DNA of 64,000 nucleotides from the human T2T-CHM13v2.0 reference genome, Homo sapiens. The stretch lies in the NCBI RefSeq assembly GCF_009914755.1, contig NC_060934.1; one strand, given 5' to 3'. A program made the translations under genes and the position numbers. Under the pieces are notes generated by a model that saw only the letters and a list, made by a program, of their open reading frames with translations, was not told the DNA's origin and did not search any database. Below, one piece after another: positions 13,401 through 63,921 of the stretch. Position 1 is the stretch's first letter. Each line of letters starts with the position of its first letter.

Positions 13401-14276
13401 TCAAGTATCTTCTTGGACCACAGTAGAAAAACACATGTAGAAGTCAACATCAAGAAAAACACTCAAAATTATACAAATACATAGAAATTAAACAGCCTGC
13501 TCTTGAAGGATCTTTGGAACAACAAGAAAATTAATATGAAAATCAAAAACTTTTCTGAAATGCATCAAAATAGAGAAACAGCATACAAAAATCACTGGAG
13601 TATAGCAAAAGCAGTGCTAAGAGAAAACATTAGAGTGATAAATGCCTAAATCAAAAAGAAAGAAATATCACAAATTAATGAACACCATACCTCAAAGGAC
13701 TAGAAAAAAGGACAAATTAAGCTCAAAGCTAGCAGAAGAAAAATAACAAAGATCAGAGCAGAATTAAATTAAATGGAGACAAAAAAGGATCAATGAAACA
13801 GAAAGTTGATTTTTTTAAAGGATAAACAAAAAATTGAAGACCACTAGCCAGATTAACCAAGGAAAAAAGAGAGAGGATTTAAATAAGACTGATCAGAAAT
13901 GAAAAAGGAGACATTACAACTAATATCATATAAACACAAAAGACCATCAAAGACTACTATGAGCATCTCTACACACACAAACTAGAAAACTCAGAGGAAA
14001 GTGTTAAACTCCTGGAAGCATACAACCTCTCAGGATAGAACCAGAAAGAAATAGAAATATTGAAAAGACCAATAATGAGCAGTGAAAATGAATTGGTAAC
14101 ATAAAGTCTCCCAGCCAAAAAAAGCCCAGGACCAGGCAGATTCGTGGTGAAATCTATTGATACGAACTGTACAAGGAACAGGTACCAATTCTGCTGAAAC
14201 TGTTTCAAAATATCAAGGAGAAAAGAATACTCTTAAGTCATTATATAAAGGCAGCATTATCCTGATACTAAAGTCA

Positions 14277-14277
<1 letters not shown>

Positions 14278-14317
<40 letters not shown>
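14278..14317. repeat. (CA)n microsatellite inside L1 ORF2
   Basis: ~20 uninterrupted CA units. Confidence 0.95.
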
Positions 14318-14319
<2 letters not shown>

Positions 14320-14765
14320 CTACAGGCCAATATCATTAACGAACCTAGATGCAAATACCCTCGACAAAATACTAATGAACAACAGCATATTAAAAAATTA
14401 ATACACTATGATCAAGTGAGTTTTATTCCATGGATGCAAGGATGGTCCAACATATGCAAATCAATGAATACGATTCACCACATAAACATAATTAAAAACC
14501 AAACTATGTAATCATCTCAATAGATGCAGAAAAAACATCTGATAAAATTCAGCATTGCTTCACAAAAAAACAAAACTCAAAAAACTATGCATAGAAGGAA
14601 TCTACCTCAAAATAATAAAAGCCATATATGACAAACGTATAGGCAATGTCATATTAAAAGGGAAAAAGTTGAAAACATTCCCCTAAGAACTGGAGCAAGA
14701 TAAGGATGGCCACTTTCACCATTCCTATTCATCAAAGTACTGGGAGTCTTTGTTACAGCAATCAG

Positions 14766-17867: not shown

Positions 17868-18283
17868 TGTCTACGTTAGGCCATTTTACATCACTATAAA
17901 GGAATATCTGAGGCTGGGTAATTTATAAAGAAAATAGGTTTATTTACATTCACATTTGTGCAGGCTGCACAAAAAGCATGGTTCCAGCATCTGCTGCTGG
18001 TGAGGGCTTAGGAAGCTTCCTATCAGGGCAGAAGGCAAAGGAGGAGCAGGCATGTTTCATGGTGAGAGAGGAAAGAAGAGAGAGAGATTATGGGGAGGTC
18101 CCATGCTCCCTTAAACAAGCAAATCTTGTGCAAACTCCAGTGAGAACTCACTTATTATTGCAAGGAGGGCACCAAGCCATTCATGAAGGATCCTCCCCCA
18201 TGACCTAAACTCTTCTAGGCCCCACCTTTGATATTGGGGGTTACATTTCAAGATTTGCAGGAGACACAGATCCAAACCATGTC
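17868..18283 (-). mobile_element. Solo MST (MSTB-like) ERVL-MaLR LTR
   Basis: gaggctgggtaatttataaagaaaa...ctggtgagggcttaggaagctt...tccaaaccatgtc. Confidence 0.85.
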
Positions 18284-19015: not shown

Positions 19016-21957
19016 ATCTTATATGATGCCTTACATTGGTTTATGCATTTTTCCCTCTAAGATAATATACCTCTTGGATTAAAGGATTATGTATTATCAT
19101 ACCCCAGGAACTCTCTATAGCACCAGGCATGTAATAGGGTCACAATGAATATTAGTGGAATTAATGTCTTAATTAACAAAATGTGACTAGTTTTCTAAAA
19201 ATAAACATTTGAAAGGAATACTCTTATTTACTCAGTGTTCATCTATTCCATCATCATTAACTGGTATATAGATATAACCAGTGAACAGTGCACTCCTTAT
19301 CAGAAAAATATAAGTACAGACCCTAAAATATATTTTTCTTAAAAGAAGTATCATGGTTTAAAATGAATTGCATCACAAAGGATATAAAATTAGTTACAGT
19401 TTGTGATTACAGCTTTTAGGCAGCAGCTTTGTAAAGGAAATTTAAATTATTATCTCTATTTGATCATTGACATCTTTGTCAATTTTTGATTTCACAGTGC
19501 AATTATAACATTTTCTCTTAGAAAAGTCTTGTAATGAGCCTAGGTTTGTTCACCTTGGATTCCCAGATACTACTTACGAAAATAAGAGTATGGCATCTCA
19601 TATCTGGGGTCATGTTCCTGAGCACAAACTGGTGACACTGTGATGATACATTGCAATAGTAAATAATTAAACTTACTTCTCTCCTCTCCCTAGTGCTCCA
19701 CTGACAGATGAGACTGCGTAGTATATTATCACAGCACCATTGTACTAGTGATGCATTGGAACAGAGTGCCACCAGAGAGTCTTTCCCCTAAGTGAAATAT
19801 GGATCTGTCACAGGGTTTTAGACATCTAAGTATGCATTTTCAAATCCACTCCATGGGCTTGAGAAATAAAATCAAAGTTTTTTTATTTTTTTAATCATAA
19901 TATATCAAATATTGCAATGCAAGTGTGTGATAGCTGGGAGCTCAATCAATTCAAACTCATAAATAATGTATTTTCCTTGTATTGTATATATGTGAAAAGG
20001 TTAACTTATCTTCTGTGAAAAAAGCTTAAGGTATAAAGGGCAGATACACTAAACAACTGTCCACAAGACTGAGTGTTATTATGGACTTCAGGATGTATAG
20101 AGGCCATTTATATGAGCTTTAAGGAAAATGTTCTCTGAGCTGCCTTGCAAGAAAAAACTGATACAGTGAAAATATATATTTTTTTACTTTTAAATAAGCT
20201 TTGAGACCTTTTCTTCCAAAGTGTAAAGGCTACAGTTTCAACCCCACATATTTATTTAAGTGGTTCCAACTGAACAGAATAAATGAGGGCATGAAGATTC
20301 ACTTGGCAAGCTGAAAAATAAAAGAGAAATGAAAAGGCTATGAAATCCATTCCAGCTACTTTATGGCAACTTACGTGTATCCTTTTCAGAAAAGCTAGAT
20401 TAGTCTGACCCAAAATAACCATCCAATGTATCAACTGAGCCAAAGAACCATCAAGCTATGTGAGCATATGGGGAAGTGTACTAGGACTACCTGCCCAGAG
20501 TGACTTAATAAAACCTGTATGTGGCAAAGGAGACACAAATAGGGCTTGAAATCCATTCCATACTCTGCTCACCAAGCCAGTGGTTTTAATGCGGAGGGGT
20601 TAACTCAGAGGATGGGGGATTTGGAGAAGGTGACATTTATGAATGGTCTGCCCATAGGAACATATTTTTTATAACTAGCACAGAAAGGCCATATGTGCTA
20701 ACAGAGTACCTCAAAAGGAGGAAAAATGGTCAGGCTTTTCTAAGAAGTTACAGGAAATCGAGCCTAGCCTTCATTTGGCCAGATGCTATAAGGAATAGTA
20801 ACCCTATCAGGACTCAGATTCCTTTAGCAACTGTAAACAAATTGACTGGGTATAGGAAACGACCCCTTTCAATACCCTTCATCCCTGGCTTTTTGCAAAA
20901 TCTGGCTCATTTTCTTGACTTTCAACACTTGAGTTTTATTCTGTACATTCTCTGTTGAGCTGGTTAAAGTTTTCAGTATGCAGACCCATATTTCTTCCTG
21001 AATTATTGTTTCCTGCATTGATGAAACCATGGATAATATTCACAATCTATAAAAATTGTATAGCATTGTCCTGTTAGAATGATACAGACCTTACAACTGA
21101 AGCTGAGTCCTAGAGTCTCCCAGGTTTGGCCAGAAATTAGTCTTTATTATCTGGATACTGGACATTTTGTGTTTCTTGGGGGAAATGAAGCACTTTGGGT
21201 AGCAAGGAGGCAACTCAAGAATCATGAATTTATTCATTTATCAGCCAGTGTGGGTATATTCAATACTTTAGCAATTGGTGCAGTTGTTTCAAATGTGTGG
21301 GATCAATGTAAGTCATGGGTGGAACTGACCTTGTGCTTCTACCGAAGGCCCTCTTCCCATTTATATTTTATAACCAAATCTTGTTGTCATTTTATTAACT
21401 GCCATTTGTGCTTCCCTGTCAGGTTAGGCCTTGCATCTTTAATCAGTAAATCCCCAGTACTTCATTATTAGAAATCACAATTTTCTTTTCTGATTTAGTG
21501 TAGTTTAATTTGAAATTTCTTACTTTGCCACTGAAGTAAACTAGTGTATCTAAGTATGTCTTCAGTACATTATTGCTTCATCTATGCATATATATCTTAT
21601 CATTTATATCTTTAATCTCTGTATATTCATTGATTTCTTCTTTTATACTCACAAAAAGAATCAAGCTTTCCCATCCTAAAGTGGCATTTCTTCTAGCCTG
21701 TCTCTCTTGATCAAAAAGTTCTTTTAAACACCAAAGTTTTTGAAAGTAGAATCCTTACTTCTTTGCTTATATGATTTCACTCACAAATCCACTATAATCT
21801 GAATTTCAATATACCAGATTATAAATAGGTCTCTGCTAAAACAATTATTGATCTACAAAGAACCATTTCAATGGTTTATTTTCTTCCCTTAAAAATTCGA
21901 TGCTTTCTGTATCAAAATACACTTAGCAATTATTAAACAATTACACTAAGCAATTAT

Positions 21958-24417
21958 TAAAAGCTTATCCACCACAATCAAGTCAGTTTCATCCCTGGGT
22001 TGCAAGGCTGGCTCAACATAGGAAAATCAATAAATGTAATCCATCACATAAACAAAACCAATGACAAGAAACAAATGATTATCTCAATAGATGCAGAAAA
22101 TGTCTTTGATAAAATTCAACATCCCTTCACTTTAAAAACTCTCAGTAAACTAGATATTAATGGAACATATCTCAAAATAATAAGAGCTATTTATGACAAG
22201 CTAGAGCCAATATCATGCTGAATGGGCAGAATCTGGAAGCATTCCCTTTGAAAACCAGCACAAGACAATGATGTCCTCTCTCACCACTCCTATTCAACAT
22301 TGTATTAGAAGTTCTGGCCAGGGCAGTCAGGCAAGAGAAAGAAATAAAGCATATTCAAATAGGAAGAGAGGATGTCAAAGTGTCCTTGTCTGCAAATGAC
22401 ATGATTCTATATTTAGAAAACCCCATTATCTCAGCCCAAAAACTCCTTCAGCTGATAAGCAACTTCAGCAAAGTTTCAGGATACAAAATCAATGTGCAAA
22501 AATCACGAGTGTTACTATACATCAACAATAGATAAGGAGAGAGCCAAATCACGAATGAACTCCCATTCACAGTTGTTACAAAGAGAATAAAACACCTGGG
22601 AATACAACTTACAAGCGATGTGAAGGACCTCTTCAAGGGGAACTACAAACAACTGCTCACGGAAATAAGATAGGACACAAACAAATGCAAAAAAAAAAAT
22701 TCCATGCTCATGGATAGGAAGAATTAATATCATGAAAATGGCCATACTGCCCAAAGCAATTTATAGATTCAATGTTATTCCCATCAAGCTACCATTGACA
22801 TTCTTCTCAGAATTAGAAAAAACTACTTGAAATTTCCTATGGAACCAAAAAAAGAGGCCATATAGTTAAGACAATCCTAAGCAAAAAGAACAAGAAACCT
22901 AAGCAAAAAGGCACTACTCTACCTGACTTTAAACAATACTACAAGTCTACAGTAACCAAAACAGCATGGTACTGGTACCAAAACAGATATATAGATGAAT
23001 GGAACAGAACCGAGTCCTCAGAAATAACACCACATATTTACAGCCATCTGATCTTCAACAAACCTGACGAAAACAAGCAATGGGGAAAGGATTCCCTATT
23101 TAATAAATGGTACTGGGAAAACTGGCTAGCCCTATGCAGAAAACTGAAACTGGACCCCTTCCTTACACCTTACATAAAAATTAACTCAAGATGGATTAAA
23201 GACTTAAATGTAAATCCCCAAACCATAAAAACCCTAGAAGAAAACCTAGGCAATACCATTTAGGATACAGGCATGGTCAAAGATTTCATGACAAAAACAC
23301 CAAAAGCAATTGCAACAAAAGCCAGAATTGACAAATGGGATCTAATTAAACTAAAGAGCTTCTGCACAGCAAAGGGAACTAGCATCAGAGTGAACAGGCA
23401 ACCTACAGAATGAGAGAAAATTTTTACAATCTACTCAGCTGACAAAGGTCTAGTATCCAGAATCTACAGGAACTCAGACAAATTTACAAGAAAAAAAAAA
23501 CAGAAAACCCCATCAAAAAGTGGGCGAAGGATATGAACAGACACTTCTCAAAAGAAGACATTCATATGGCCAACAAACATTTGAAAAAAAGCTCATCATT
23601 ACTGATCATTATAGAAATGCAAATCAAAACTGCAATGAGATATCATCTCATGTCAGTCAGAATGGCGATTATTAAAATGTCAGGAAACAATAGATGCTGG
23701 TGAGGCTGTGGAGAAGCAGGAATGCTTTTACACTGTTGGTGGGAGTGTAACTTAGCTCAACCATTGTGGAAGACAGTGTGGCGATTCCTCATGGATCTAG
23801 AATGAGAAATACCATTAGACCTAGCAATCCCATTACTGGGTACATACCCAAAGATTATAAATCATTCTACTATAAAGACATATGCACATGTAGGTTTATT
23901 GCAGCACTATTTACATTAGCAAAGACTTGGAACCCACCCAAATGTCCATCAATGATAGACTTGATAAAGAAAATGTGGCACATATACATCATGGATTATT
24001 ATGCAGCCTTAAAAAAGAATGAGATCATGGCTTTGCAAAGACATGGATGAAGCTGGAAACCATCATTCTCAGCAAACAAAGGAACCAAAAACCAAACCCC
24101 ACATGTTCTCACTCATAAGTAGGAGTTGAACAATGAGAACACATGGACCCAGGGAGAGGAATAGCACACACCAGGGCCTGTCCTGGGTTGGGGGACAAAG
24201 AGCAGGACAGCGTTAGGACAAAGAGCAGGACAGCGTTAGGACAAATAGCAAATGCATGCAGTGCTTAAAACCTAGATGATTGATTGGCAGTTGCAGTAAA
24301 CCACCATGGCACATGCATACTTATGTAACAAACCTGCACATTTTGCACATGTATCCTGGAACTTAAAGTAAAATTTAAAAACAAACAAATAAAAAAACAA
24401 GTTAATAAAAAAAAAAA
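21958..24417 (+). mobile_element. 3' half of an L1PA7/8-like element (RT, C-terminus, 3'UTR, poly-A)
   Basis: ORF 22000-22221 [32 protein letters not shown] is L1 RT. The 3'UTR reads ttaggacaaatagcaaatgcatgc...aaacctgcacattttgcacatgtatcctggaacttaaag. The A-tail ends in aaagatacctgaaa. Confidence 0.95.
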
Positions 24418-25986
24418 GATACCTGAAAATGTGGAAGCAACTTTGGACCTGGATAACAGACAGAAGTTGGAAGAGTTTGGAGGGCTCAGAAGAAGACAGG
24501 AAGAGAAGCAAAGTTTGGAATTTCTTTTGAGACTTGTTAAGTTTTTGTCACCAAAATGCTGATAGTGATGTGGACGGTGAAGGCCAGGTTGATGAGGTCT
24601 CAGAGAGAAACAAAGAATTTATTGGAACTGAAGCAAAGGTCATTCTTGTTATGACTTAACAACAAATTTGGCTTCATTTTGTTAATGTCCTAGGGATCTG
24701 TGGAAGTCTAAACTTAAGACTGATGACTTATAGTACCAGGTGGAAGAAATTTCTAAGCAGAAATACATTCAAGAAGTTGCATGGCTGTTTCCAACAGACT
24801 GTGATCAAATATAGGAGTAAAGGAATGACTTAAAGTTGGACTTTATAATTAAAAGGGAAGCAGAGTGTAAAAATTTAGAAATTTAACAATGTGGCCATGT
24901 GGTAAAGAGGGATAAAACATTTTCAGGAGAGAAATATAAGTGGGTTGCAGAGAAGCCACTTGCCAGATAGGGAGCCAAGATAATGGGGAAAAAGCTGTAG
25001 AAGACATTTCAGAAATCTACAAGGTAGCCCCTCCAATCACAGGCCCAGAGGCCTAGGAGTAAACAACGGTTTCAAGGGCCAGACACAGGGTCCCACTGCC
25101 CTGCACAGCCTTGGCACACTGCTTCCTGTATCCCTGCTGCTCCAGCTTCAGTCATGGTTCAAAGTCCTAAGTGCAGCTCAGACTGCTACTCCAGAGAGCA
25201 CACACTGTTAGACTTGACAACTTACATGTGATGTTTACTCTGCAGGCACACAGAATGCATGAGTGGAGGAGGTTTGACAGTTTCTACCTAGATTGCAGAG
25301 GATGTATGGGAAAGCCTCAGTGCCCATGTGAAGCTTGCTGCTGTGGTGAAGCACCACAGAGATACTCTAACAGGGCAATGCTGAGGGAAATGTGAGACTG
25401 TAGTCCCTACCAGGGTACTGCCTAGTGGAGCTGTTGGAAGGAGGGCAATGCCCTCCAGACTCCAGAACAGTATAGTCACCAGCAGTTTGCACTCTCAGTG
25501 GGAAAAAAACTGTAGGCACTTAACTCCAACCCATAAGAGCAGCCATGTGGGCTGCGCCCTGTAAAGCCACAAGGGCAGAACTGCCCAAGGGCTTGAGAGC
25601 CTACCCCTTGCACCAGTGTGCCCTGGATGTGAGACATGGGGTCAAGGATTATTTTAGAGCTTTAAGGTTCAATGTCTGCCCTGATGGGTTTCAGGCTTGC
25701 CTGGAGGCTGTTTTCCTTTCTTTTGGTGGATTCCTCCCTTTAGGAATGGGTATGTTTATCCAATGCCTATTCCATCATTGTATCTTGGAAGTAAATCACC
25801 TGTTCTTGATTTTACAGGTTCATAATTGGAAGGAGCTTGCCTTGCCTTGAGTCTCTGAAGAGACTTTGGACACTGACTTTTGAGTGATGCTGCAATGAGT
25901 TATGACTTTTGGGGACTATTGGGAAGGGGTGATTGTATTTTGCAGTATGAGGAGAACATGAAATGTTAGAGGTGCCAAGGGTAGAG
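24418..25986 (+). mobile_element. MST internal region (ERVL-MaLR int)
   Basis: gatacctgaaaatgtggaagcaactttgg...tttggagggctcagaagaagacagg and caccagtgtgccctggatgtgagacatggggtcaagga are hallmark THE1/MST-int sequence. Confidence 0.9.
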
Positions 25987-26382
25987 TGATATAGTTTGTA
26001 TGTTTTGTCCACTCCAAATCTCATGTTGAAAGGTGATCCCCAATGTTGGAGGTGGGGCCTAATAGGATATATTTGGGTCATGGGTGGATCTCCCATGAAT
26101 TGCTTTTTGCTGTCCTTGCAGTTATGAGTGAGTTTTCACTCTGTGAGTTCATTTAAGATTTGGATGTTTAAAAGAATCTTGCACTTCCTCCTTTGCTCTC
26201 TTGTTCCCTTTCTTGCCATATGACACACTGGCTCCCCCTCACCTTCTGCTGTGAGTGAAAGCTAGATGCCAGCATTCTGCTTGATGTACAGCCTGCAGAA
26301 CCATGAGCCAAATAAATCTCTTTTCTTTATTAATTACCCAGTCTCAAGTATGTATTTAGGTCAATGAAAACAGACTAACACA
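25987..26382 (+). mobile_element. MSTB-like 3' LTR
   Basis: tgatatagtttg...ccaaatctcatgttgaaa...gcctgcagaaccatgagccaaataaa...cagactaacaca. Confidence 0.9.
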
Positions 26383-26865
26383 GTGCCCCACTCTGCAAAA
26401 AACTAGATTAGGTGATGAAACAATAGGATAAAAAGTAGTTTTATGAGTCTCAAGAAATGGAGGTAGAGACAAAACAATATAAAACACTTATAAGTTAGCA
26501 ATTATTTTTAAGAGGATATAAAAATAAAAATATCTTTAAGGTGATCACATTTGAACAAGAATTAAAAAAATATTTAGGGAGGAAATTGATATGATGCAAT
26601 TTACTGTATAAATGATGTGTAATCAGTTAAAGGTAACAAACTCTGGAGTGGAAAGTCTTTGCACATTTAAAAATACACTATACAATGTCAGCAGGAGCTG
26701 TGGGTATATGTTAAGCCAAAGGATTTATGAAGAGAAGTCATGTTTTGAAAAATAAGGATAATACATGGATGGAGAGAAGGTTATTCTGAGTAGATAGAAG
26801 TTACCTAGAACCAATTTTGGAAGGTAGAAGTAGAACAGTTGCTTTGAAGGGTGATTAAACTTTAG

Positions 26866-27011
<146 letters not shown>

Positions 27012-30000
27012 CTGTGAATCTGTCTGATCGTGGGCTTTTATTGGTTGGTAGGCTATTAATTACTGCCTCAATTTCAGAACTTGTTATTGGTCTATTCAGG
27101 GATTCACCTTCTTCCTGGTTTAGTCTTGGGAGGGTGTATGTGTCAGGGAATTTATACATTTCTTCTAGATTGTCTAGTTTATTTGCATAGAGGTGTTAAT
27201 AGTATTCTCTGATGGTGGTTTGTATTTCTGTGGGGTCAGTGGTGATATCTCCTTTATCATTTTTATTGTATCTATTTGATTCTTCTTTCTTTTCTTCTTT
27301 ATTAGTCTAGCCAGTGGTCTATTTTCTTAATACTTTCAAAAAACCAGCTCCTGGATTCATTGCGTTTTTGAAGGATTTTTCAGTTTCTCTATCTCCTTCA
27401 GTTCTTCTCTGATCTTAGTTATTTCTTGTATTTTGCTATCTTTTGAATTTTTTTGCTTTTCTTTTCTAGTTTTCTTCATTGTGATGTTAAAGCATCGATT
27501 TCATTCTTTCGCATTTGCTGAGGAGTGTTTTACTTCAATTATGTGGTAGATTTTAGAATAAGTGCCATGTGGCACTGAGAAGCATGTATATTCTGTTGAT
27601 TTGGGGCGAAGAGTTCTATAGATGTCTATTAGGTCCACTTGATCCAGAGCTGAGTTCAAGTCCTGAATATCCTTGTTAATTTTCTGTCTCATTGATTTGT
27701 CTAATATTGAGAGTCGGGTGTTAAAGTCTCCCGCTATTATTGTTTGGGAGTCTAAATCTCTTTGTAGGTCTCTAAGAACTTGTTTTAAAAATCTGTTGCT
27801 CCTGTATTGGGTGCATATATATTTAGGATAGTTAGCTCTTCTTGTTGCATTGATCTCTTTACCATTATGTAATGCCCTTGTTTGTCTTTTTTGATCTTTG
27901 TTGGTTTAAAGTCTGTTTTATCAGAGACTAAGGTTACAACCCCTGCTTTTTTCTTGCTTTCCATTTGCTTAGTAAATATTACTCCATCCCTTTATTTGAG
28001 CCTATGTGTGTCTTTGCACATGAGATGGGTCTCCTGAATACAGCACATGGATGGGTCTTGACTGTTTATCCAATTTGCAAGTATGTGTCTTTTAATTGGG
28101 GCATTTAGCCCATTTATATTTAAGGTTAATATTGTCATGTGTGAATTTGATCCTGTCATCATGATGCTAGCTGGTTATTTTGCACAGTAGTTTATGCAGT
28201 TTCTTCATACTGTCATTGGTCTTTATATTTTGGTGTGTTTTTGCAGTGGCTGGCACCAGTTTTTCCTTTCCACATTTAGTGCTTCCTTCAGGAGCTCTTG
28301 TAAGGAAGGCCCGGTGGTAACAAAATCCCTCAGCTTTTGCTTGCCTAGAAAGGATTTTATTTCTCCTTTGCTTATTAATCTTACTTTGGCTGGATATGAA
28401 ATTCTGGGTTGAAAATTTTTTCTTTAAGAATGTTGAATATTGACCCCCACTCTCTTCTGGCTTGGACGGTTTCTGCAGAGAGATCTGCTGTTAGTCTGAT
28501 GGGCTTCCCTTTGTAGGTGACCTGAACTTTCTCTCTGGCTGCCCTTAACATTTTTTCCTTCATTTCAACCTTACAGATTCTGATGTTTATGTGTCTCGGG
28601 GTTGATCTTCTCATGGAATATCTTAGTGGTATTCTCTGTATTTCCTGAATTTGAATGTTGGTCTGTCTTGCTGGGTTGGGGAAGTTTTCCTGGATAATAT
28701 CCTGAAGTGTGTTTTCCAACTTAGATCCATTCTCCCCATCACTTTCTGGTACACCAGTCTATCACAGGTTTGATCTTTTCACATACTTCCATATTTCTTG
28801 GAGGCATTGTTTGTTCCTTTTTGTTCTTTTTTCTCTCATCTTGTCTGCATCCCTTATGCCAGCAAGGTGGTCTTTAATTTCTGATATCTTTTCTACCACT
28901 TGATCAACTGAGCTATTGATATTTGTGTATGCTTCACGAATTTCTTGTGCTGTGTTTTTCAGCTCCATCAGGTCATTTATGTTCCTCTCTACACTGGTTA
29001 TTCTGTCTAGTTAGCAGTTCCTGTAACCTTTTATCAAGGTTCTTAGCTTGCTTGCATTGGGTTAGAACATGCTCCTTTAGCTCTGAGGAATTTTATTAGC
29101 CACCTTATGAAACCTACTTGTGCCAATTCGTCAATCTCATTCTCCGTCCAGTTTTGCCCCCTTGCTGGAGAGGTGTTGCCAACATTTGGAGGAGAAAAAG
29201 CATTCTGGCTTTTGGAATTTTCAGCATTTTTGTGGTGGTTTTTCCCCTTCTTCATGGATTTATCTACCTTTGATCTTTGAGACAGATGACTTTTGGATGG
29301 GTTTTTTGTGGGGGGTTCTTTTTTGTTGATGTTGTTGTTGCTTTCGGTTAGTGTTTCTTCTAACAGTCAAGCTCCTCTTCTGCAGGTCTGCAGGTCTGCA
29401 GTTTGCTGAAGGTTCACTCCAGACCCTGTTCACCCAAGTGTCACCAGTGGAGGCTGCATAACAGCAAAAATTGCTGCCTGCTCCTTCCCCTGGAAGCTTC
29501 GTTGCAGAGGGGCACCTGCCTGATGCCAGTTGGAGCTCTCCTGTATAAGGTGCCTGTTGACCCCTGTTGGGATGTCTCTCCCAGTCAGGAGGCACGGGAT
29601 TCAGAGACCCACTTGAGGAGGCAGTCTGTCCCTTAGCAGAGCTGGTGTACTGTGCTGGGAGAATCCCCCTTGTCAGGATCAGCTGCTCTCTTCAGAGCCG
29701 GCAGGCAGGAAAGATTAAATCTCCTGACGCTGTGCAGGCAGCCGCCCCTTCCCTCAGGTTCTCTGTCCCAGGGAGTTGAGACTTTTATCTGCTGCATTTC
29801 CTTCAGAGACACCCTGCCCAGCGAGGAGTAATCTAGAGAAGCATTCTGGTCACAGCCACTTTGCCACGCTGTGGTGATTTCTGCCCAGTCCAAACCTCCC
29901 AGTCTCCTTAGCACTGTGAGGGGAAAATCGCCTACTAAAGCCTCACTATTGGTGGATGCCCCTCCCCCACAAATGTCGACCGTCCCAGGTCGACTCCAGA

Positions 30001-30568
30001 CTGCTGTGCTGGCAGTGAGAATTTAAGCCAGTGGTTCTTAGCTTGCTGTGCTCTGTGGGAGTGGGACCTGCTGGGCGAGACCACTGTTTCCCTGGCTTCA
30101 GCCCCCTTTGCAGGGGAGTGGACAGTTCTCCTCTCTTGCTGGGGTTCCAGGCACTGCTGGGGTATGAAAAAAACTCCTGCAGGTAGCTCGGTGCCTGCCC
30201 AAACAGCCGCTCAGTTTTGTGCTTGAAACCCAGGGCCCTGGTGGTGTAGGCTCACGAGGGAATCTCCTGATCCACAGATTGCAAAAGTCCGTGGGAAAAG
30301 CGTAGTACCTGGGATGGGTAGCACGGTCCCTCACCACTTCCCTTGGCTGGGAGAGGGAGGTACCCCGGTCCTTGCACTTCTCAGGTGAAGCCACACTCTG
30401 CCCTGCTTCTGCTTGCTCTCCATGGTTTGCACTCACTGCCTAACCAGTCCCAGTAGAATGAACTGTATTCCTCAGTTGGAAATGCAGAAATCACCTGCCT
30501 CCTGCATTGATCTGACTAGGAGCTGCAGACTGGAGCTGTTTCTATTAGGCCATCTCAGTCCCCCTCAC
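27012..30568 (-). mobile_element. 5' half of an L1PA7/8-like element (5'UTR, ORF1, ORF2 EN to pre-RT)
   Basis: ORF1 remnants (ENTLQDIIQENFPN...YKGKPIRLTADLSAET; MELKNTAQE), EN remnant (RQKINKDIQDLNSALDQVDLIDIYRTL), and 5' end gagatggcctaatagaaacagctccagtctgcagctcc on the minus strand. Confidence 0.95.
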
Positions 30569-31032
30569 TTTCAGGTATCTTTATAGCATCATCCCACTCC
30601 TAGGTATCAATCTTCTGTATTAGTCCATTTGTGTTGCTACAAGGGAATGCCTTAGACTGGGTAATTTATAAAGAAAAATGTTTACTTGACTCATAGTTCT
30701 GTAGGTTGTGCATGAAGCATAGTGCCGGCATGTGCTTCTGGTGAGGGCCTAAGAAAGCTTACAATCATGGTGGAAGGTGTAGGGGAGCCAGTGTGTCACA
30801 TGGCAAGAGAGGCAGCAACAGAGTGAGGGAGGAGGTGCAATGCTTTCTTAAAGAAGCATATCATAAGTGAACTCACAGAGCAAGACCTCCCTCGTACCCT
30901 GAGTACAGCACTAAGACATTCATGAGGGCTTTGACCCTACAACCAAACACCTCCCACTAGGCCCCAACTCCAACACTGCAGAACACATTTCAACATGAGA
31001 TTTGGAGGCAACAAAATATCCAAACCATATCA
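30569..31032 (-). mobile_element. MSTB-like 5' LTR (30617-31032) plus the first ~48 bp of MST-int
   Basis: minus strand reads tgatatggtttgg...ggactaataca|gaagattgatacctaggagtgggatgatgctataaagatacctgaaa. Confidence 0.9.
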
Positions 31033-31895
31033 GGAAAATCTAATCAATTGAATGGGTTCACATGCTCATCATTGTCTACTACCCTTGCAAGCAATATAGA
31101 ATATCTTCTCAGCCACTTGTTAAAAAAATCTCAGAACCTCCATATATTTTCTGCTTGAGATTTAACCTTTATCCTCTGCTACCTTTCATCCTGTCTTTTA
31201 AATGGTCAAAAATGTATCAGAAAAAAGGGAAAATCATGTATACTATACTTAAAACTGTTAGGAAGTATTTTTTGAAAATATTAAAGTTATTTTCAAAACA
31301 CAAAAATAAAATGATGGCAGACGTATGTTTGTTATTTCAGAAAAGGCACATTAGAGGGAAAATAATAAAATAAGATCTCATATCAGACTTACATTTTAAA
31401 TTTTCATTTCAAAGAAGTAAATTAACCCAGAATAAACAGAATTCAACTTATAAGGTTCTTGTTGTTTGAAACTGTATTGCACCATTTCACAGGAAAACAA
31501 GCTGCTAAAAATTTAGCACATAATTTATTATTCCCACTTATATTTATATTTGGAGTCTTGTAGTACATACTATTTATTTTCAAGGAGTTTGGCCACCTAT
31601 TAGAATCTTGTGATCTCTAAGAGTCAGAGTATATGATATTATTCATCTTTGTTTATGTATTAATTGAAATGAGGGCAGAAAATTCATAAAAAGTCCTTCA
31701 TGATCTGACTTGATGCCACCTTAAGGAGTCACTCAGAGTTCAGGAAAAAAAATCACTACTTGTCAGATAATTATTTTAGTAGTACACACAAAAGAATTCC
31801 CAAATTGTGGAAGATTTAGTAGATATTTTAATAGATCCTATTTGTGTTTTCAATGGTCCCATCAGTTCCCACACTGCTTCCAACAACTCTTCTCT

Positions 31896-31945
31896 TTAAA
31901 TATAAATGGGCTAAATGCCCCAATTAAAAGACACGGGCTTGCAAA
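31896..31945 (+). repeat. Isolated 50-bp L1 ORF2-start fragment (inverted copy of 28074-28123)
   Basis: 47/50 identical to the reverse complement of 28074-28123. Confidence 0.85.
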
Positions 31946-34676
31946 CTAAAGAAACAAGTATATATGACAGAGAACCAATTCAGCTCAGCAGCAGTTTTCC
32001 TCAAAAAGCTTGTCACACATTCAAGACTTCTGTTCAGCTGTATTGAAATGATGGTTTAATTCCCAAAGTCCTGATTACGATTCAGGTCTTTATATTCAGC
32101 CAAGCCTACTTTTTGGATATAAACACTCTCTACCCTGGTCAAAAAGAAGAAAAGAATAAGCAATGACATGTTTGTTGTCTTAGAAAACATCGGCTTAAAA
32201 GCTGAAACAAGTAATGGATCTCTTTCTTTCAGACTACCCAGAATAATCACTGCCTCTGCTAATCACTGTTTTTCTAACAGTATGTACTACTGATGGTATG
32301 AATATTTTAATACATGTCTTGCATTATTATTTGATCATTTGGGTATATGTGCTGGGGCATTCTATTTTCTTTTTCAAAATGTTATGTGTTCTCTGGAGAA
32401 ATGTTTTGATCCCTCTCTCTCCAAAAAATACATAGACATAATTCTGTATGTGACTTATGAAAATATTTTTTCTTAATAAATATATACTCCTACATGACTT
32501 TGAACTTAAGCAGAATGAAAATGGGGAAAAATTGGGAAATTAATTGCAGTGGGTTGCTCTGTTTAGTAGCTCTTGTATCAATGTCCTAAATTCAAAACTA
32601 CTTAACATATTTTACAGTACCCTAAATTTCAATTTGAAAAAGTGAAATTCAACACTATTTATGTTTCCTCTCAATACAAGAAAGTTTCTATTTGTATTTA
32701 TTGGATGGTAGTAAAACAAATTCATGATGACAGAAGCAAAACATAAGAAATATATTTGTCATGCAGGGAAGTTATTAGAAAGTTGAATCAAGTAAAATAA
32801 AATTAAAATATTTACTCAGTTTTGTGGTAACAAAATAATTTGGCTTATTATAAATAGGATACTTTTTAGCTCACATAAAAATTTAAAGATGGTTTTAGTT
32901 CAAGAAGCACAAACTTCTATACAATGGTGCTCACAATAATAAGTTTTTAGAGAAGTATTAGTGGGTATAGTCCATAATTTTCTCATTGTAAGATTTTATG
33001 GGTTAGGAGAAATATGGTTTGTGGAAGAGACTAAAAACTACAAAAATCAATGATGTGAGTTTACTTTGCAACCAGTGGCACTAGTTGATTTTTATATCAG
33101 CTCTTCCTAACTTTCTATCTCTTTCAGTGTAAAAGTGAATCATCAATCTGTGCTATATAGTTCTCTCCCACACTAATATTTATAAAGTATATGAAAGACA
33201 AACATCTGTCTTCTTTAAAAATACATTTACATAGTGGCATATTCCCTTTTTAACTTAATAGAGCTGTTTAGACAAATATAGAAAAATTATAGTGGCATAG
33301 ATCACTTGAGAAAAATATTTAAGCACACAAATTTATATGGATACACAAATAGATTTGTGTGTGCATATATATATATATAAAACCTAATACATTATCCTAA
33401 TTTTGTTCTTCATAACTGTTAATCTGACACCAGTATATTTATTTATAATATTTATCATTTAAAGCAAAGATTTAAAATAGGATTAATTCAGAATTTATCT
33501 GATTTTTAAGGGCTTTTCTCATACAGAAGACCTCAAATCCCCTTAATTATCTCCCATCTGGCTTTCTTTGCTTGTCTCTATAGCTTTGTCCACTGCAAAG
33601 TTCTATTTTGTGGTGATATTTTTATTAATTTCCTCATGACTAAAACCACCATGAAAAACTCATATGAGGAGCAAACTTCACTAAAAACATTAATGTTTCC
33701 TGGGGAGGAGAGAAAAACTTAAAATTCAATACTATTCATGCTCACATTCCCAATACGATGAAGTTTCTAATTGTATTTATTAGATATTAGTAAAAAATTA
33801 TGATAACAAGAGCAAAATATAAGTAATAGATTTGTTACTCAGCGAAGTTATTAATTTCTACTGGCTAGGGAAATAACTGTCTATGAAATTGTAGTAGATA
33901 TTTTTAAATAACCGATGATCAAGATTTTTTATGTCTGGTATTCTATTGAGTATTGTCCACGTTATTACAGAATGTGTAAATCTGCGAAGACATAGAAAAC
34001 GTTTAATTTCTAAACAACTAACACATACCAAAATCATAACAAGTTTTACAATATTTGGGAGGCAATGTAAGTTTTCATTAATTATCTTGCAAAGAACTTA
34101 TTGCCAGTGAGTTTGATGCCTTATAATGACAATCTGCCTTGTCTTTAGAAAGTTGTCGCTGGTACATGAAATGATGAAAGCTTCGTAAACCTAGAATATA
34201 GTTTAGTTTTTGAACTGACTAAATATAGTCATATAGAAAATCCAATTTGCCATTCATAAATTTGTTCACATACTTCCAGCATAAGTATAGAAAATATATT
34301 ATTCCACTTTATGTTGAGAATCCAATGTTATAGCCACCTAGGGATGACAAAATAACAATTTATGTTAAAAGAGATGTTTTTAGCCCATAATAGGAGATGG
34401 TTGCTATCTAAAATAAACTGTTCCTAGTAATTGTCATATTTTAATCCTATTCTCAGCTACCTTTACATGATATAAAACCTCTTTCATCCTGTGAGGTTTT
34501 CTATTGTTTATTAAAAGCACCTCTTCTATGGAAGTTTGCTGCAGAGAACGCTTTCTCCTCAATACCATTTTTTATATGTGAATGTGGAATCTGGAAGAAA
34601 TATTAAACGAAAGTTAATGTTCTTACAAATGCACATACTTTTTATCCGTGTTGAATGAATTTTAGGTTGCTTTTTT

Positions 34677-37764: not shown

Positions 37765-39066
37765 TTTTTTAAACTTTTATTTTTAGTTCAAGCATACATG
37801 GGTAGGCTTGTTACATAGCTAAATTGTGTGTGAAGGCGGTTTGGTGTACAGATAATTTCATCACCAGATAGGTGGTTTGATGATCCTCACCCTTCTCCCA
37901 GCCACCACCCTCCAGGAGACCCCGGTGTCTATTGTTTCCTTCTTTGTGTCCCTAAGTACTCCATGTTTAGCTCTGATATGGTTTGTATTTGTGTCCCCAC
38001 CCAAATCTCATGTCAAATTGTAATCCCCAATGTTGGAGCTTGGGCCCTGTTGGGGGTGATTGGATTATGGTGGCTGATTTCTGACTTTGATACTGTCTTG
38101 GGATAGTGTTCTCAGGTGATCTGGTTGTTTAAAAGTGTGTGGTACCTCCCCACTGCTTTCTTCCTCCTGCTCCAGCCATAAAGACATGCCAGTTTTCCCC
38201 TTGCCTTCTCCTATGATTCTAAGTTTCCTGAGGCCTCCCCCACCATGCTTCCTGAAAAACCTGCAGAATGGTGAGTCAATTGAACCTCTTTTCTTTAAAA
38301 TTATCCAGTTTCTCGGGTATTTCTTTATAGCAATGTGAGAATTAATACATCTCCCACTTACAAGTGAGAACATGTCATATTTGGTTTTCTGTTCCTGTGT
38401 TAGTTCCCTTAGGATAATGGCCTCCAGATCCATCCATATTGCTCATTCTTTTTTAAGGCTGCATACAATTCCATGGTGTATATATACCACATTTTCTCTC
38501 TTTACTCACTCTACTGTTGATGGGCATTCAGATTGATTCCTTGTCTTTACTATTGTGAATAGTGCTTCAATGAACACACACGTGCATGTGTTCTTGTGGT
38601 ACAACAGTTTATATTCCTTTGGGTGTATACTCAATGATGGGATTGCTGGGTTTAATGGTAGTTCCATTTTAAGTTTTTGAGAAATCACCACATTGCTTTT
38701 CACATGGCTGAACTAATTTACATTCTCACCAGCAATGTGTATTTCCTTTTCTCTGTAACTTGGCCAGCATCTGTTATTTTTTAACTTTTTAATGATAGCT
38801 ATTCTGACTGGTGCGAGACAGTATCTCACTGTGGTTTTAATTTGCTTTTTTTTATGACGATTAGTGATGTTGAGTATTTTTTAATGTTTTTTGGCCATGT
38901 GTATGTCTTCTTTTGAAAAGTGTCTGTTTATTTACTTTGCCTACTTTGTAATGGAGTTGTTTTTTTTTTTCTTGTTAAGTTCTTTATAGGGTCTGAATAT
39001 TAGACCTTTTTTAGATGCATAGTTTGCAAATATATTCTCTCATTCTATAGGTTGTCTGTTTACTCT
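37765..39066 (-). mobile_element. 5'-truncated L1PA13-16-like 3' end, interrupted by an MSTA LTR
   Basis: antisense 3'UTR (ggtttggtgtacagataatttcatcacc) and ORF2 C-terminus (ELPLNPAIPSLSIHPKE; MDLEAIILRELTQEQKTKY). Confidence 0.9.
37974..38349 (+). mobile_element. Solo MSTA LTR nested in L1
   Basis: tgatatggtttg...ccaaatctcatgtcaaattgtaatcccc...gcaatgtgagaattaataca; host L1 tttagctc|ccactta resumes after it. Confidence 0.9.
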
Positions 39067-39969: not shown

Positions 39970-41575
39970 TGCTATTCAAAGGGATGTTCAGATTCAATGT
40001 AATCCTCACCAGAATAAAAATGGCATTCTTCACAGAAATATGAAAAACAATCATAACATTTATTAAAAAATCAAAAAGGACCCTGAAAAGCCAAAACAAT
40101 CCTGAGCAAAAACAAACAAAACAAAACAACAACAAAAATGCTGGAGACTCCATACTACCTCTCTTTAAAATATACTACAAAGCTATCCAAAATAGCAAGG
40201 TGCTGTGATAAAAACAGATATGTATACCAGTGGAAGACAATGGAGAATTCAGAAGCAAATCCATATATTCACAACCAACTCACTTTCAACAAAGGCACCA
40301 AAAACATACATTGGAGAAAGTAAAGTATCTTGAATAAATGGGGCTGAAAAACTGGATATTCACATGCAACAGAATGAAACTGGATTCCTATCTTTTACCA
40401 TATAAAAATCAACTCAAAATAGATTAAAAATTGAAATGTAAGACCCAAAACTATAAAACTGCTAGAATACAACATAGGGGAAATGCTTCATGCTATTAGT
40501 CCAGGCAAAGATTATTTGAGTAAGACCTTGAAAGCACAGGCACCAAAAGCAAAAACAGACAGATTAAACTCTATCAAGCTAAAACGTATCTGCACAGCAA
40601 TGGCCACAACCAATAGAGTGAAGGTGCAACCTATAGAATTGGAGAATATAATTGCAGTGTATCCATCCAACAAAGAATTAACATTCAGGATATATAAAGA
40701 GCTAAAAGAATTCAATAGTTTTTAAAAATTTCATTAAAAAGTGTGCAAAGGACGTGAAGAGGAATTTCTTCAAAGAAGACATACAAATGGCCAACAGGTA
40801 TATTAAAAAATGCTAAACATCACTAACCATCGGGAAATGCAAATCAAAACCACAATGAGATATCACCTCACATCTCTTAGAATGGCTATTACCTAAAGAA
40901 TAAAAGGTAAGTATTAGCGAGCATGCAGAAAAAGTAAACTCTTATACACTGTTGGTGAAAATGTAAATTATTATAGCCATTATGGAAAAACATATGACTG
41001 TTCTTCAGAAAACTAAAAATAGAAATATCATGTGACCCAATAATCTCACTACTGAATATATATCCAAAGGAAAGACAATGAATACATTGAAGAGATAATT
41101 GAATGAAATCTTGCCATTTGTGGAGGACATTGTATTTAGTGATATAAGCCAGGTACGGAAAGACAAATACTCCATGTTCTCACTCATATGTGGCAGCTAA
41201 AAAGTTGATGTCATAAAAGTAGATATTAGAATAGTGGTTACCAGAGGAAGGGAAGGATGAGGTGGGAAGGGGAGATAGGAAGAGGTTGTTTAATGGGTAC
41301 ACAATTACAGTTAGATAACAAAATAACTTTCTAGCGTTCTATAGCATAGTACAGTTGACTAGAGCTAATAACAATTTATTATATACTTCAAAATAGCTAG
41401 CAGAGAGGAATTTGAATGTTCCCAACACAAATTATGAACATTTAAGATGATGAAGATAATACATATACCAATAACCTAAATTTGATCACTACATATTGTA
41501 TACATGTAATGAAATATCATGTGTTTTATAAATATGTATAATTATGTATCAATTGGAATTTTAAAAATTGTATTA
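39970..41575 (+). mobile_element. 5'-truncated L1MA-type element
   Basis: ORF2 C-terminal remnant plus L1MA 3'UTR (gaatagtggttaccagagg, aattacagttagata, gaatgttcccaacacaaa). Confidence 0.85.
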
Positions 41576-62129: not shown

Positions 62130-62573
<444 letters not shown>

Positions 62574-63087
62574 CTATTTTATTGAGGAGTTTTGCATGTC
62601 TGTTCATGTTGACCTGTAGCTTGCTTTCTTGTATCTTTGTTTGGCTTTGGTATGAGGGTGATGCAGGCTTATAAAATGAGTTTGAAAATGTTTCCTCTGA
62701 TTTTGTTTTTTAGATGAGTTTTTAAAAAGTTAGTATTAATTCTTTGAATGTTTGCTAGAATTTAATCAGGAAATTATCTGTTCTTGGGCTTTTCTTTGTT
62801 GGGAGATTTTTTTTATTACTACCTAAATCTCTTTGTTATTATTCTATTAAAGTATTTATTTTTAATTCAGTATTGGTAGGTTTTTTGTTTCTAAAAATGC
62901 ATTTGTTTCCTCTAGATTATCCAATTTGTTGGATTATAATTATCCATAATCATCCCATATAATCTTTTTTATTTCTGAAGCACCTGTTGTAATGTCTTCT
63001 CCCTCATTTCTGATTCTATTAGAATTTTCTGTCTTTTTTAATCAGTTAGTTGAGCCAAGGTTTGTCTATCTTATTTTTTGAGAAAAC

Positions 63088-63921
63088 AAAACTAGAAGAA
63101 ATGGATAAATTCCTTGACACATACACCCTCCCAAGACTAAGCCAAGAAGAAGTCTAATCCCTGAAGAGACCAATAACAAGTTCTGAAATTGAGGCAGTAA
63201 TCAGTAGCTTACCAACAACAACAACAACAAAAACAACAAAGCCCAGGACTAGACGGATTCACAGCCAAATTCTACCAGAGGTACAAAGAGGAGCTGGTAC
63301 CATTCTTTCTGGAACTATTCCAAACAATTGAAAAGGAGAGACTCCTCCCTAACTCATCTAGCATCACCCTGATACCAAAACCTGGCAGAGACACAACAAC
63401 AACAACAAAAAAATTCAGGCCAACATCCCTGATGAACTTCAATGCAAAAATCCTCAATAAAATACTGTCAAGCCAAATCCAGTAGCACATCAAAAAGCTT
63501 ATCCACCATGATCAAGTCGGCTTCATCCCTGGGATGCAAGGCTGGTTCAGCATATACAAATCAATCAACATAGTCCATCATATAAACAGAATCAATAACA
63601 AAAACCACATCATTATCTTAATAGATGTCGAAAAGGCTGTTGATAAAATTCAACATCCCTTTATGTTAAAAACTCTCAATAAACTAGGTATTGATGGAAC
63701 ATATCACAAAATAATAAGAGTTATTTATGACAAATCTATAGCCAGTATCACTCTGAATGGGCAAAAGTTGGAAGCACTCTCTGTGAAAACTGGCACAAGA
63801 CAAGGACATCCTGTCTTACCACTCCTATTCAACATAGTATTAGAAGTTCTGTCCAGGGCAATCAGGCAAGAGAAAGAAATAAAGGGTATTCAAATAGGAC
63901 GAGAGGAAGTCAAATTGTCTC
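63088..63921 (+). mobile_element. L1PA (PA7/8-like) ORF2 segment, 5'-truncated; interrupted by an Alu at the window edge
   Basis: ctagaagaaatggataaattccttgacacatacaccctcccaagactaa through gaggaagtcaaattgtctc. Confidence 0.92.

What the first reader, a model, noticed from the sequence alone, without database searches (positions are those of the whole stretch)
21918..31032. ~5 kb inversion that split one full-length L1 and its host MST provirus; TSD copies now on opposite strands
Seen: the + strand L1 3' half ends in AAAGATACCTGAAA (24415-24428) and runs into MST-int. The - strand L1 5' half is preceded, on its own strand, by the same 14-mer (tttcaggtatcttt, 30569-30582), which is the broken start of MST-int behind an MST 5' LTR. 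The two L1 halves are complementary and do not overlap: the 5' half stops at ...gattcacag (27012) and the 3' half starts at aaaagcttatccacc (21958). About 230 bp is missing, judged from the equivalent L1 segment at 63265-63492. The right breakpoint also cuts an Alu exactly at the start of its right monomer. Inference: the ancestral order was LTR-int[TSD-L1-TSD]int-LTR on the minus strand. Segment ~21958-27011 was later inverted by a non-homologous mechanism, with sequence lost at both junctions. Twin priming cannot explain this, because host MST and flanking DNA lie between the halves.
Basis: partly seen in the sequence, partly recalled or inferred. Interest (0 to 1): 0.8.

Follow-up and report, generated by a model that had tools for sequence, protein, structure and literature searches.

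The report
Old 5-kb inversion splitting one L1
A full-length L1 retrotransposon that had landed inside an ancient MaLR retroviral-like element was later broken when a 5-kb stretch of DNA flipped over, an ordinary kind of small, non-homologous inversion in a gene-free part of human chromosome 10.

Summary

- **Target-site duplication.** The 14-mer AAAGATACCTGAAA occurs only twice in the window: at 24415-24428 (+), after an L1 poly(A), and at 30569-30582 (-), before an L1 5' end. In intact MaLR elements this is a single-copy site. The two flanks here are its exact upstream and downstream neighbours.
- **Two L1 pieces, one element.** The pieces are 30568→27012 on the minus strand and 21959→24414 on the plus strand. 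They do not overlap and map collinearly onto full-length genomic L1s. They lack 234 nt, which are ORF2p residues 478-556. Both are equally diverged from those references.
- **The rearrangement.** Only flipping 21959-27011 (5,053 bp) rejoins the pieces. No inverted homology links the two breakpoints.
  - One junction is blunt: an Alu left arm joined to L1.
  - The other carries a 24-bp tandem duplication and up to 3-4 A of possible microhomology.

Best reading: a canonical L1 insertion, then a two-break, non-homologous inversion with loss of sequence.

Not shown here: the date, fixation in humans, loss at the Alu-side junction, and the subfamily names. No outgroup genomes or pangenome haplotypes were on hand. 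The event belongs to a known kind and touches no annotated gene. Interest is low to moderate.

The parts
21915..21962 (+). 24-bp tandem duplication in the left flank. Its second unit runs into the first A's of the L1 piece at junction J1 (21958|21959).
   Evidence: family D8: 21915-21937 and 21939-21961, 21 of 23 identical, spacing 24. One search prints both units (21 of 24).
21959..24414 (+). L1 3' piece: ORF2 from residue 557 to its end, 3' UTR and poly(A). Degenerate, with many stops.
   Evidence: homology starts at 21959. (ORF2p 557-636, E 4.9e-35 to 8uw3_A). (stops).
24415..24428 (+). Downstream copy of the L1 target-site duplication.
24429..25986 (+). MaLR internal sequence downstream of the insertion site.
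   Evidence: collinear with the internal region downstream of the 14-mer in 8 of 8 reference copies, 67-71% identity.
25987..26382 (+). MaLR 3' LTR.
   Evidence: genome matches cover query 8-404. (72% to the other LTR). (ends).
26383..26874 (+). Single-copy DNA that flanked the provirus, carried along in the inverted segment.
   Evidence: the only genome match is itself.
26875..27011 (+). Alu-type left arm, A-rich linker and TTAGCC. It ends at junction J2 (27011|27012).
27012..30568 (-). L1 5' piece: 5' UTR, ORF1 and ORF2 residues 1-477. It has an internal deletion of about 277 nt at 27489-27497.
   Evidence: (ORF2p 417-477, E 4.9e-25). (internal deletion). (homology to full-length copies starts 6-16 nt from 30568).
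30569..30582 (-). Upstream copy of the L1 target-site duplication.
30583..30615 (-). MaLR leader between the 5' LTR and the insertion site.
   Evidence: matches the stretch upstream of the 14-mer in intact copies.
30616..31032 (-). MaLR 5' LTR.

Best explanation
**Step 1 (shown).** A full-length L1 inserted by ordinary endonuclease-dependent, target-primed reverse transcription. The target was the leader and internal region of a complete MaLR (MST-like) provirus lying on the minus strand. The insertion duplicated 14 bp of the target.

**Step 2 (shown as an outcome, mechanism inferred).** The chromosome later broke at two places. One break was inside L1 ORF2. The other was about 5 kb away, at the end of an Alu left arm in the DNA flanking the provirus. 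The 5,053-bp segment between the breaks (now 21959-27011) was rejoined in reverse.

**Consequences.**
- 234 nt of L1 were lost (ORF2p residues 478-556).
- Probably the rest of the Alu and some flank were lost too.
- The present order is therefore the derived one.

**Mechanism (inferred).** The joining was non-homologous. I favour two double-strand breaks repaired by end joining (about 55%). The Alu|L1 junction is blunt. The other junction shows up to 3-4 nt of A microhomology and a 24-bp local duplication, which could be templated fill-in. A replication-based template switch (FoSTeS/MMBIR type) giving deletion-inversion-deletion is the main variant (about 30%).

**Function.** None is expected. 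No gene or functional element is annotated in the window or within 100 kb.
For: **The 14-mer is a true target-site duplication.**
- It has 2 copies in the window, on opposite strands.
- The 14-mer plus the next 10 nt occurs 557 times in the genome, with 0 hits for the reversed control.
- In 8 of 8 fetched copies it is single-copy. Its upstream and downstream neighbours match the window's minus-strand and plus-strand flanks respectively.
- The plus-strand internal part is collinear with 8 of 8 references.
- No other MaLR internal sequence is in the window.

**The two L1 pieces are one element.**
- 19 of 22 genomic L1 references carry both anchors on one strand. The distance is 227-244 nt in 18 (median 234) and 557 in 1.
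- ORF2p residues run to 477 in one piece and from 557 in the other.
- 7 of 14 references of 7 kb carry all 15 tiles of the two pieces collinearly.
- ORF tiles average 86-88% identity for the 5' piece and 85-88% for the 3' piece.
- The best genome hits are 87-90% and 88-89% identical.
- A 5'-only L1 fragment without a 3' end cannot arise by retrotransposition (established knowledge).

**The joining was non-homologous.**
- 0 of 21 inverted-repeat pairs in 21400-27600 link the two junctions.
- The bases at the junctions show no overlap at J2.

**Sequence was lost.** The 234-nt piece is found in the window only in unrelated L1 copies.
Against: - No outgroup or second human haplotype could be examined, so the ancestral order is inferred from one genome.
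- The two LTRs are only 72% identical (275 of 382). Neither is among the other's 40 scored genome hits.
- The 5-bp MaLR target duplication matches at only 3 of 5 positions.
- Loss at the Alu junction is not shown. The Alu piece could be a free left monomer ending naturally near 27005.
- The 24-bp duplication may predate the event.
- End joining and template switching leave the same end product and cannot be told apart here.
Confidence: 0.85

Rival explanations
1. The inversion arose during L1 integration itself, by twin priming or a related integration-coupled rearrangement, rather than afterwards.
For: - L1 copies with inverted 5' parts are common. Several reference loci fetched here show strand switches inside one L1 (L055, L062, L067).
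- Such junctions often lack some L1 bases, as here (234 nt).
Against: - 2,597 bp of host DNA (TSD, MaLR internal part, LTR, single-copy flank, Alu) lie between the two pieces.
- L1 base 1 abuts the upstream TSD in normal orientation, and the poly(A) abuts the downstream TSD. Both ends were therefore joined canonically at one site.
- In twin priming the internal L1 position, not base 1, abuts the upstream TSD (established model, recalled).
Confidence: 0.02
2. Two unrelated L1 fragments sit in two unrelated MaLR elements that happen to lie 6 kb apart in opposite orientation.
For: - The LTRs are only 72% identical to each other and are not each other's best genome matches.
- The MaLR target duplication matches at 3 of 5 positions.
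Against: - Two insertions would have to hit the same 14 bp. One would have left only the upstream MaLR part and only the L1 5' part. The other would have left only the downstream parts, with end points 234 nt apart and no overlap.
- A 5'-only L1 is not a product of retrotransposition.
- At this age, 72% LTR identity is what two LTRs of one provirus would show. Each LTR is only 72-79% identical to its best genome hits.
- 3 loci are shared between the two top-40 lists, drawn from 5,483 and 6,528 candidates.
Confidence: 0.01
3. The order is an assembly artefact of this genome, or a rare private allele rather than the fixed human state.
For: Only one assembly was available. Nothing here tests other haplotypes.
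Against: - Both flanks of the junctions are single-copy in the genome, so reads of ordinary long-read length would span them unambiguously (inference).
- An assembler flip would not delete 234 nt of L1.
- The 24-bp duplication at J1 already differs at 3 of 24 positions. If it arose with the event, this points to an old event.
Confidence: 0.05
4. A more complex, multi-step or multi-break history (for example inverted re-insertion of an excised segment, or several template switches) rather than a simple two-break inversion.
For: - There is an extra deletion of about 277 nt, with about 7 unaligned bases, 480 nt inside the L1 5' piece.
- There is a 24-bp duplication at J1.
- Loss at the Alu side is inferred.
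- Non-homologous human inversions with small insertions or deletions have been ascribed to single complex FoSTeS/MMBIR events (PMC6748972, passages read).
Against: - One flip of 21959-27011 is enough to restore both the L1 and the MaLR order.
- The blunt J2 junction lacks the microhomology expected of template switching.
- The internal L1 deletion may be an independent later event.
Confidence: 0.3

Closest known systems
Non-homologous (NH) human inversions with small deletions or insertions at the breakpoints (Giner-Delgado et al. 2019, PMC6748972; passages read)
   Same: - No inverted repeats at the breakpoints.
- Kilobase size.
- Sequence lost in the derived allele.
- Expected unique origin.
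   Different: - Those are polymorphic and were typed in populations and apes.
- Here the population state and outgroups are unknown.
- The event is inferred from a split L1 and its TSD in one genome.
L1- or Alu-associated inversions between human and chimpanzee (Lee et al. 2008, PMC2603318; abstract and sections 6 and 14 read)
   Same: - Breakpoints fall inside L1 and Alu sequence.
- That paper reports 63 of 252 inversions with a retrotransposon at one breakpoint only.
- It also reports one case explained by breaks within two L1s followed by reversed rejoining.
   Different: - Here an L1 lies at one breakpoint and an Alu at the other, with no homology between them.
- The date relative to the human-chimpanzee split is unknown.
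- I did not see this locus in the main text I read (0 occurrences of 'chr10'). The supplement tables were not seen.
Retrotransposon recombination-mediated inversion (RRMI; Lee et al. 2008)
   Same: After the event, the target-site duplications of the affected elements end up on opposite strands.
   Different: - RRMI needs two same-family elements in opposite orientation and yields two chimeric full elements without loss.
- Here one L1 is cut in two and 234 nt are lost.
L1 twin priming (5' inversion made during integration; recalled, no paper read here)
   Same: Two parts of one L1 lie in opposite orientation, with a gap in L1 sequence at the split.
   Different: - Host DNA lies between the parts.
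- L1 base 1 abuts the upstream TSD.
- The host provirus is inverted along with the L1.

Membership tests
Post-insertional non-homologous inversion | Flipping one segment restores the collinearity of older elements that span the breakpoints. | tested here: met
   The L1 tiles and anchors map collinearly on references only if 21959 follows 27012. The MaLR upstream and downstream parts flank one 14-bp site.
Post-insertional non-homologous inversion | No inverted homologous repeats at the two breakpoints. | tested here: met
   0 of 21 inverted pairs in 21400-27600 link the junctions. The partners are L1 against Alu, and single-copy DNA against L1.
Post-insertional non-homologous inversion | Insertions or deletions at the junctions in the derived allele. 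| tested here: met
   234 nt of L1 are absent. Loss at the Alu side is inferred only.
Post-insertional non-homologous inversion | Ancestral (uninverted) order present in outgroups or other haplotypes. | not testable with these tools
   The genome has no relatives in the collection (header). There is no paralogue of either flank.
L1 twin priming | Both L1 segments lie inside one TSD pair with no host DNA between them. | tested here: not met
   2,597 bp of host DNA (24415-27011) lie between them.
L1 twin priming | An internal L1 position of the inverted segment abuts the upstream TSD. | tested here: not met
   The L1 5' terminus abuts the TSD.
Retrotransposon recombination-mediated inversion (RRMI) | Two same-family elements in opposite orientation span both breakpoints and become chimeric. 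| tested here: not met
   L1 at one breakpoint and Alu or single-copy DNA at the other.
Canonical endonuclease-dependent L1 insertion | Target-site duplication of about 7-20 bp, a poly(A) tail and an A-rich target. | tested here: met
   14-bp TSD. The poly(A) ends at 24414, and the target reads ...T|AAAG... in intact copies.
LINE-1 (ORF2p) | Encodes ORF2p-like sequence. | tested here: met
   Matches to solved human ORF2p at E 4.9e-35 and 4.9e-25.
   No repeat library was available. Only the level of divergence was measured: 12-14% pairwise in ORF tiles.
MaLR provirus (reader: MST) | LTR - internal - LTR in one orientation after the flip, with TG..CA ends. | tested here: met
MaLR provirus (reader: MST) | Matching 5-bp target duplication and closely paired LTRs. 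| tested here: inconclusive
   3 of 5 positions match. The LTRs are 72% identical. The subfamily name was not tested.

The most novel reading that the evidence does not exclude
All five lesions arose in one replication-based template-switching event: the flip, the 234-nt loss and the ~277-nt loss in L1, the loss beside the Alu, and the 24-bp duplication at J1. That event would be specific to a late branch (apes or humans), or even still polymorphic. It would then be a base-resolved, datable example of a small complex rearrangement, recognisable from a single genome by transposon archaeology.
Probability: 0.15. Interest if true: 0.35.

Novelty: new member of a known kind. Interest (0 to 1): 0.25.

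Why it matters
- **Method.** A split retrotransposon with its target-site duplication on opposite strands lets a fixed, cryptic inversion be read from one genome. It also gives the derived orientation and base-level breakpoints. This could be used to catalogue small old inversions without outgroups.
- **This case.** It lies in a gene desert with no annotated gene or functional element within 100 kb, so no functional effect is expected.
- **Value.** It serves as a clean worked example of a known class. If dated in primates, it could be a phylogenetic marker.

Tried and rejected
**Tests that were uninformative**
- LTR-to-LTR identity as a test of one provirus. The two LTRs are 72% alike, against 72-79% to their best genome hits. 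Elements this old cannot be paired that way.
- The MaLR 5-bp target duplication matches at 3 of 5 positions, which is weak.

**Searches that found nothing**
- A paralogue of either flank that might keep the ancestral order: both flanks are single-copy.
- The lost 234-nt L1 piece near the locus: it occurs only in unrelated L1s at 63265-63492, 14174-14373 and 62548-62682.
- A second copy of the Alu's upstream flank (a retained Alu target duplication): none near J1.
- Inverted or staggered-break duplications at the junctions: none.

**Readings rejected**
- Twin priming and recombination between inverted repeats, both on anatomy.

**Sources not available**
- A paper on L1 subfamily ages was not held under the id I recalled.
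- Literature searches gave context. I did not see this locus described in them. None of the searches was by coordinate.

**Slips corrected.** Two PDB queries failed on stop codons and were re-sent on stop-free stretches.
Full report
**What was checked.** The window is G000:C10:56916001-56980000 of a complete human assembly (header). I read 21000-32500 and tested each element of the finding.

**The 14-mer is a real L1 target-site duplication.**
- AAAGATACCTGAAA occurs only twice in the 64 kb at up to one mismatch, at 24415-24428 (+) and 30569-30582 (-). 0.10 matches are expected, and 1 of 100 shuffles gave two.
- The 14-mer with the next 10 bases of the plus-strand copy occurs 557 times in the genome (281 forward, 276 reverse). 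The reversed control gave 0. It is therefore part of a dispersed repeat, the MaLR internal sequence.
- In 8 of 8 copies fetched (L001-L008) the 14-mer occurs once. It is preceded by the LTR end and a leader of about 33 nt, and followed by the internal sequence.
- The window carries the upstream context on the minus strand (LTR end, leader, 14-mer, then the L1 5' terminus). It carries the downstream context on the plus strand (L1 poly(A), 14-mer, then internal sequence).
- The plus-strand internal part (24415 to about 25985) is collinear with 8 of 8 references over about 1.5 kb at 67-71% identity.
- The window has no other MaLR internal sequence. It has only extra LTR-like pieces at 17894-18283 and 37974-38335.
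- The target in intact copies reads T|AAAG at the nick side, which fits an endonuclease-type site (read; the consensus site is recalled).

**The two L1 pieces are complementary halves of one element.**
- I fetched 22 genomic L1 copies. Eleven were the best matches to the end of the 5' piece and eleven the best matches to the start of the 3' piece.
- Homology of the 5' piece ends at 27012 in 18 of the 21 references that matched it. It ends at 27013, 27011 and 27036 in one each.
- The 3' piece begins at 21959 in 18 of 19 references and at 21961 in one.
- In 19 of 22 references both anchors lie on one strand in the expected order. The distance between them is 227-244 nt in 18 (median 234). It is 557 nt in one copy, which has an insertion.
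- Independently, the translated end of the 5' piece aligns to solved human ORF2p up to residue 477 (E 4.9e-25).
- The translated start of the 3' piece aligns from residue 557 (E 4.9e-35).
- Allowing for one and two retained bases of the cut codons, 234 nt are missing.
- The missing piece is found in the window only in unrelated L1 copies.

**The halves are of the same age.**
- The best genome hits are 87-90% identical for the end of the 5' piece (39 non-self full hits scored of 6,611 candidates).
- They are 88-89% identical for the start of the 3' piece (39 of 10,470).
- Because each reference set was chosen on one half, I tiled both pieces (400-nt tiles) on 14 references of 7 kb (L055-L068).
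- ORF tiles average 86-88% in the 5' piece and 85-88% in the 3' piece. UTR tiles are lower on both sides (77-82% and 77%).
- Seven of the 14 references (L056, L057, L058, L059, L063, L066, L068) carry all 15 tiles collinearly on one strand. The other seven are 5'-truncated or internally rearranged.
- Homology to full-length copies begins 6-16 nt from 30568, so the element was full length: 3,557 + 234 + 2,456 nt, plus an internal deletion (see below).
- A pairwise difference of 12-14% implies about 6-7% per copy, assuming the copies radiated from a common source at about the same time. With a neutral primate rate of roughly 0.15-0.2% per million years (recalled, from no call) this is some 30-45 million years.

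**Geometry.**
- The left edges of 21959 and 27012 must be joined to restore the L1. Only a flip of 21959-27011 (5,053 bp) does this in one step.
- The flip also puts the MaLR 3' part and 3' LTR (25987-26382) behind the 5' LTR (31032-30616) on the minus strand.
- The present order is derived, because it lacks L1 sequence.

**Junctions.**
- *J2 (27011|27012).* An Alu-type left arm with linker and TTAGCC meets L1.
  - The Alu piece aligns to a complete Alu of the window up to exactly that base. That Alu then continues with its right arm.
  - In 19 references the L1 continues past the break with bases that share nothing with the Alu end. The join is therefore blunt.
  - The Alu's intact 5' start at about 26875 argues for a resident insertion, not filler.
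  - Whether it was a two-armed Alu or a free left monomer is open. No second copy of its upstream flank survives.
- *J1 (21958|21959).* Single-copy flank meets L1.
  - The last 48 nt of the flank are a 24-bp tandem duplication (21 of 24 identical).
  - Its second unit ends in the A's that begin the L1 piece.
  - This allows up to 3-4 nt of microhomology and could be templated synthesis at the repair. It could equally be older than the event.
- No inverted repeat links the two junctions (0 of 21 pairs). Homologous recombination is excluded.

**What did not help.**
- The two LTRs are 72% identical (275 of 382, with a 21-nt gap).
- Each is 72-76% or 76-79% identical to its best genome hits, and neither lists the other among its 40 scored hits.
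- Three loci are shared by the two lists.
- At this age the test has no power.
- The MaLR target duplication matches at 3 of 5 positions.

**Mechanism and rivals.**
- Shown: a canonical L1 insertion, later separation of its halves with loss of 234 nt, and no homology at the breakpoints.
- Inferred: two breaks and end joining (favoured because J2 is blunt), or a replication-based template switch.
- Twin priming fails on two tested features.
- Two independent elements would need two hits on the same 14 bp and a 5'-only L1.
- An assembly flip would not delete L1 sequence, and both junction flanks are single-copy.

**Comparison with what is known.**
- Lee et al. 2008 (PMC2603318; abstract and sections 6 and 14 read) found 252 human-chimpanzee inversions.
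  - 49 arose by recombination between inverted L1 or Alu pairs.
  - 63 had a retrotransposon at one breakpoint only.
  - One was explained by breaks in two L1s and reversed rejoining.
- Giner-Delgado et al. 2019 (PMC6748972; passages read) classed 21 of 45 common human inversions as non-homologous. [quoted passage not shown]
- The present case belongs to this class.
- I did not see it described in the texts I read.

**Verdict.** This is a real, well-resolved, probably old inversion of an ordinary kind, in DNA without annotated function. Its date, its state in human populations and the subfamily names remain open.

Noticed in passing
window 27489-27497 (minus-strand L1 5' piece): An internal deletion of about 277 nt relative to four full-length L1 references, with about 7 unaligned bases at the join. 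It lies about 480 nt from breakpoint J2. It could belong to the same event or be independent.
   Followed up: partly
window 24193-24238: A perfect 23-bp tandem duplication inside the L1 3' UTR (D7). A third, diverged unit appears to follow in the read-out.
   Followed up: no
window 63089-63919: Another L1 of similar type on the plus strand. It covers the stretch missing at the split (63265-63492, 81-83% identical to reference pieces).
   Followed up: partly
window 38348-39066 (-) and 39977-41069 (+): Two older L1 pieces in opposite orientation about 900 bp apart (67-73% identical to the 3' piece). They may be a 5'-inverted L1 or two separate insertions.
   Followed up: no
window 17894-18283 (-) and 37974-38335 (+): Further MaLR LTR-like sequences (65-82% identical to the LTRs of the split provirus) with no internal sequence beside them. 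They are probably solo or fragmentary LTRs.
   Followed up: no
loci L055, L062, L067 (reference L1 copies): Tiles of the L1 switch strand within these 7-kb reference loci, as expected of 5'-inverted L1 insertions. They make a useful contrast to the window's case, where host DNA lies between the parts.
   Followed up: no
window 22873-22910: A 16-nt direct repeat with 22-nt spacing inside the L1 ORF2 part (D17). It is a small local duplication.
   Followed up: no
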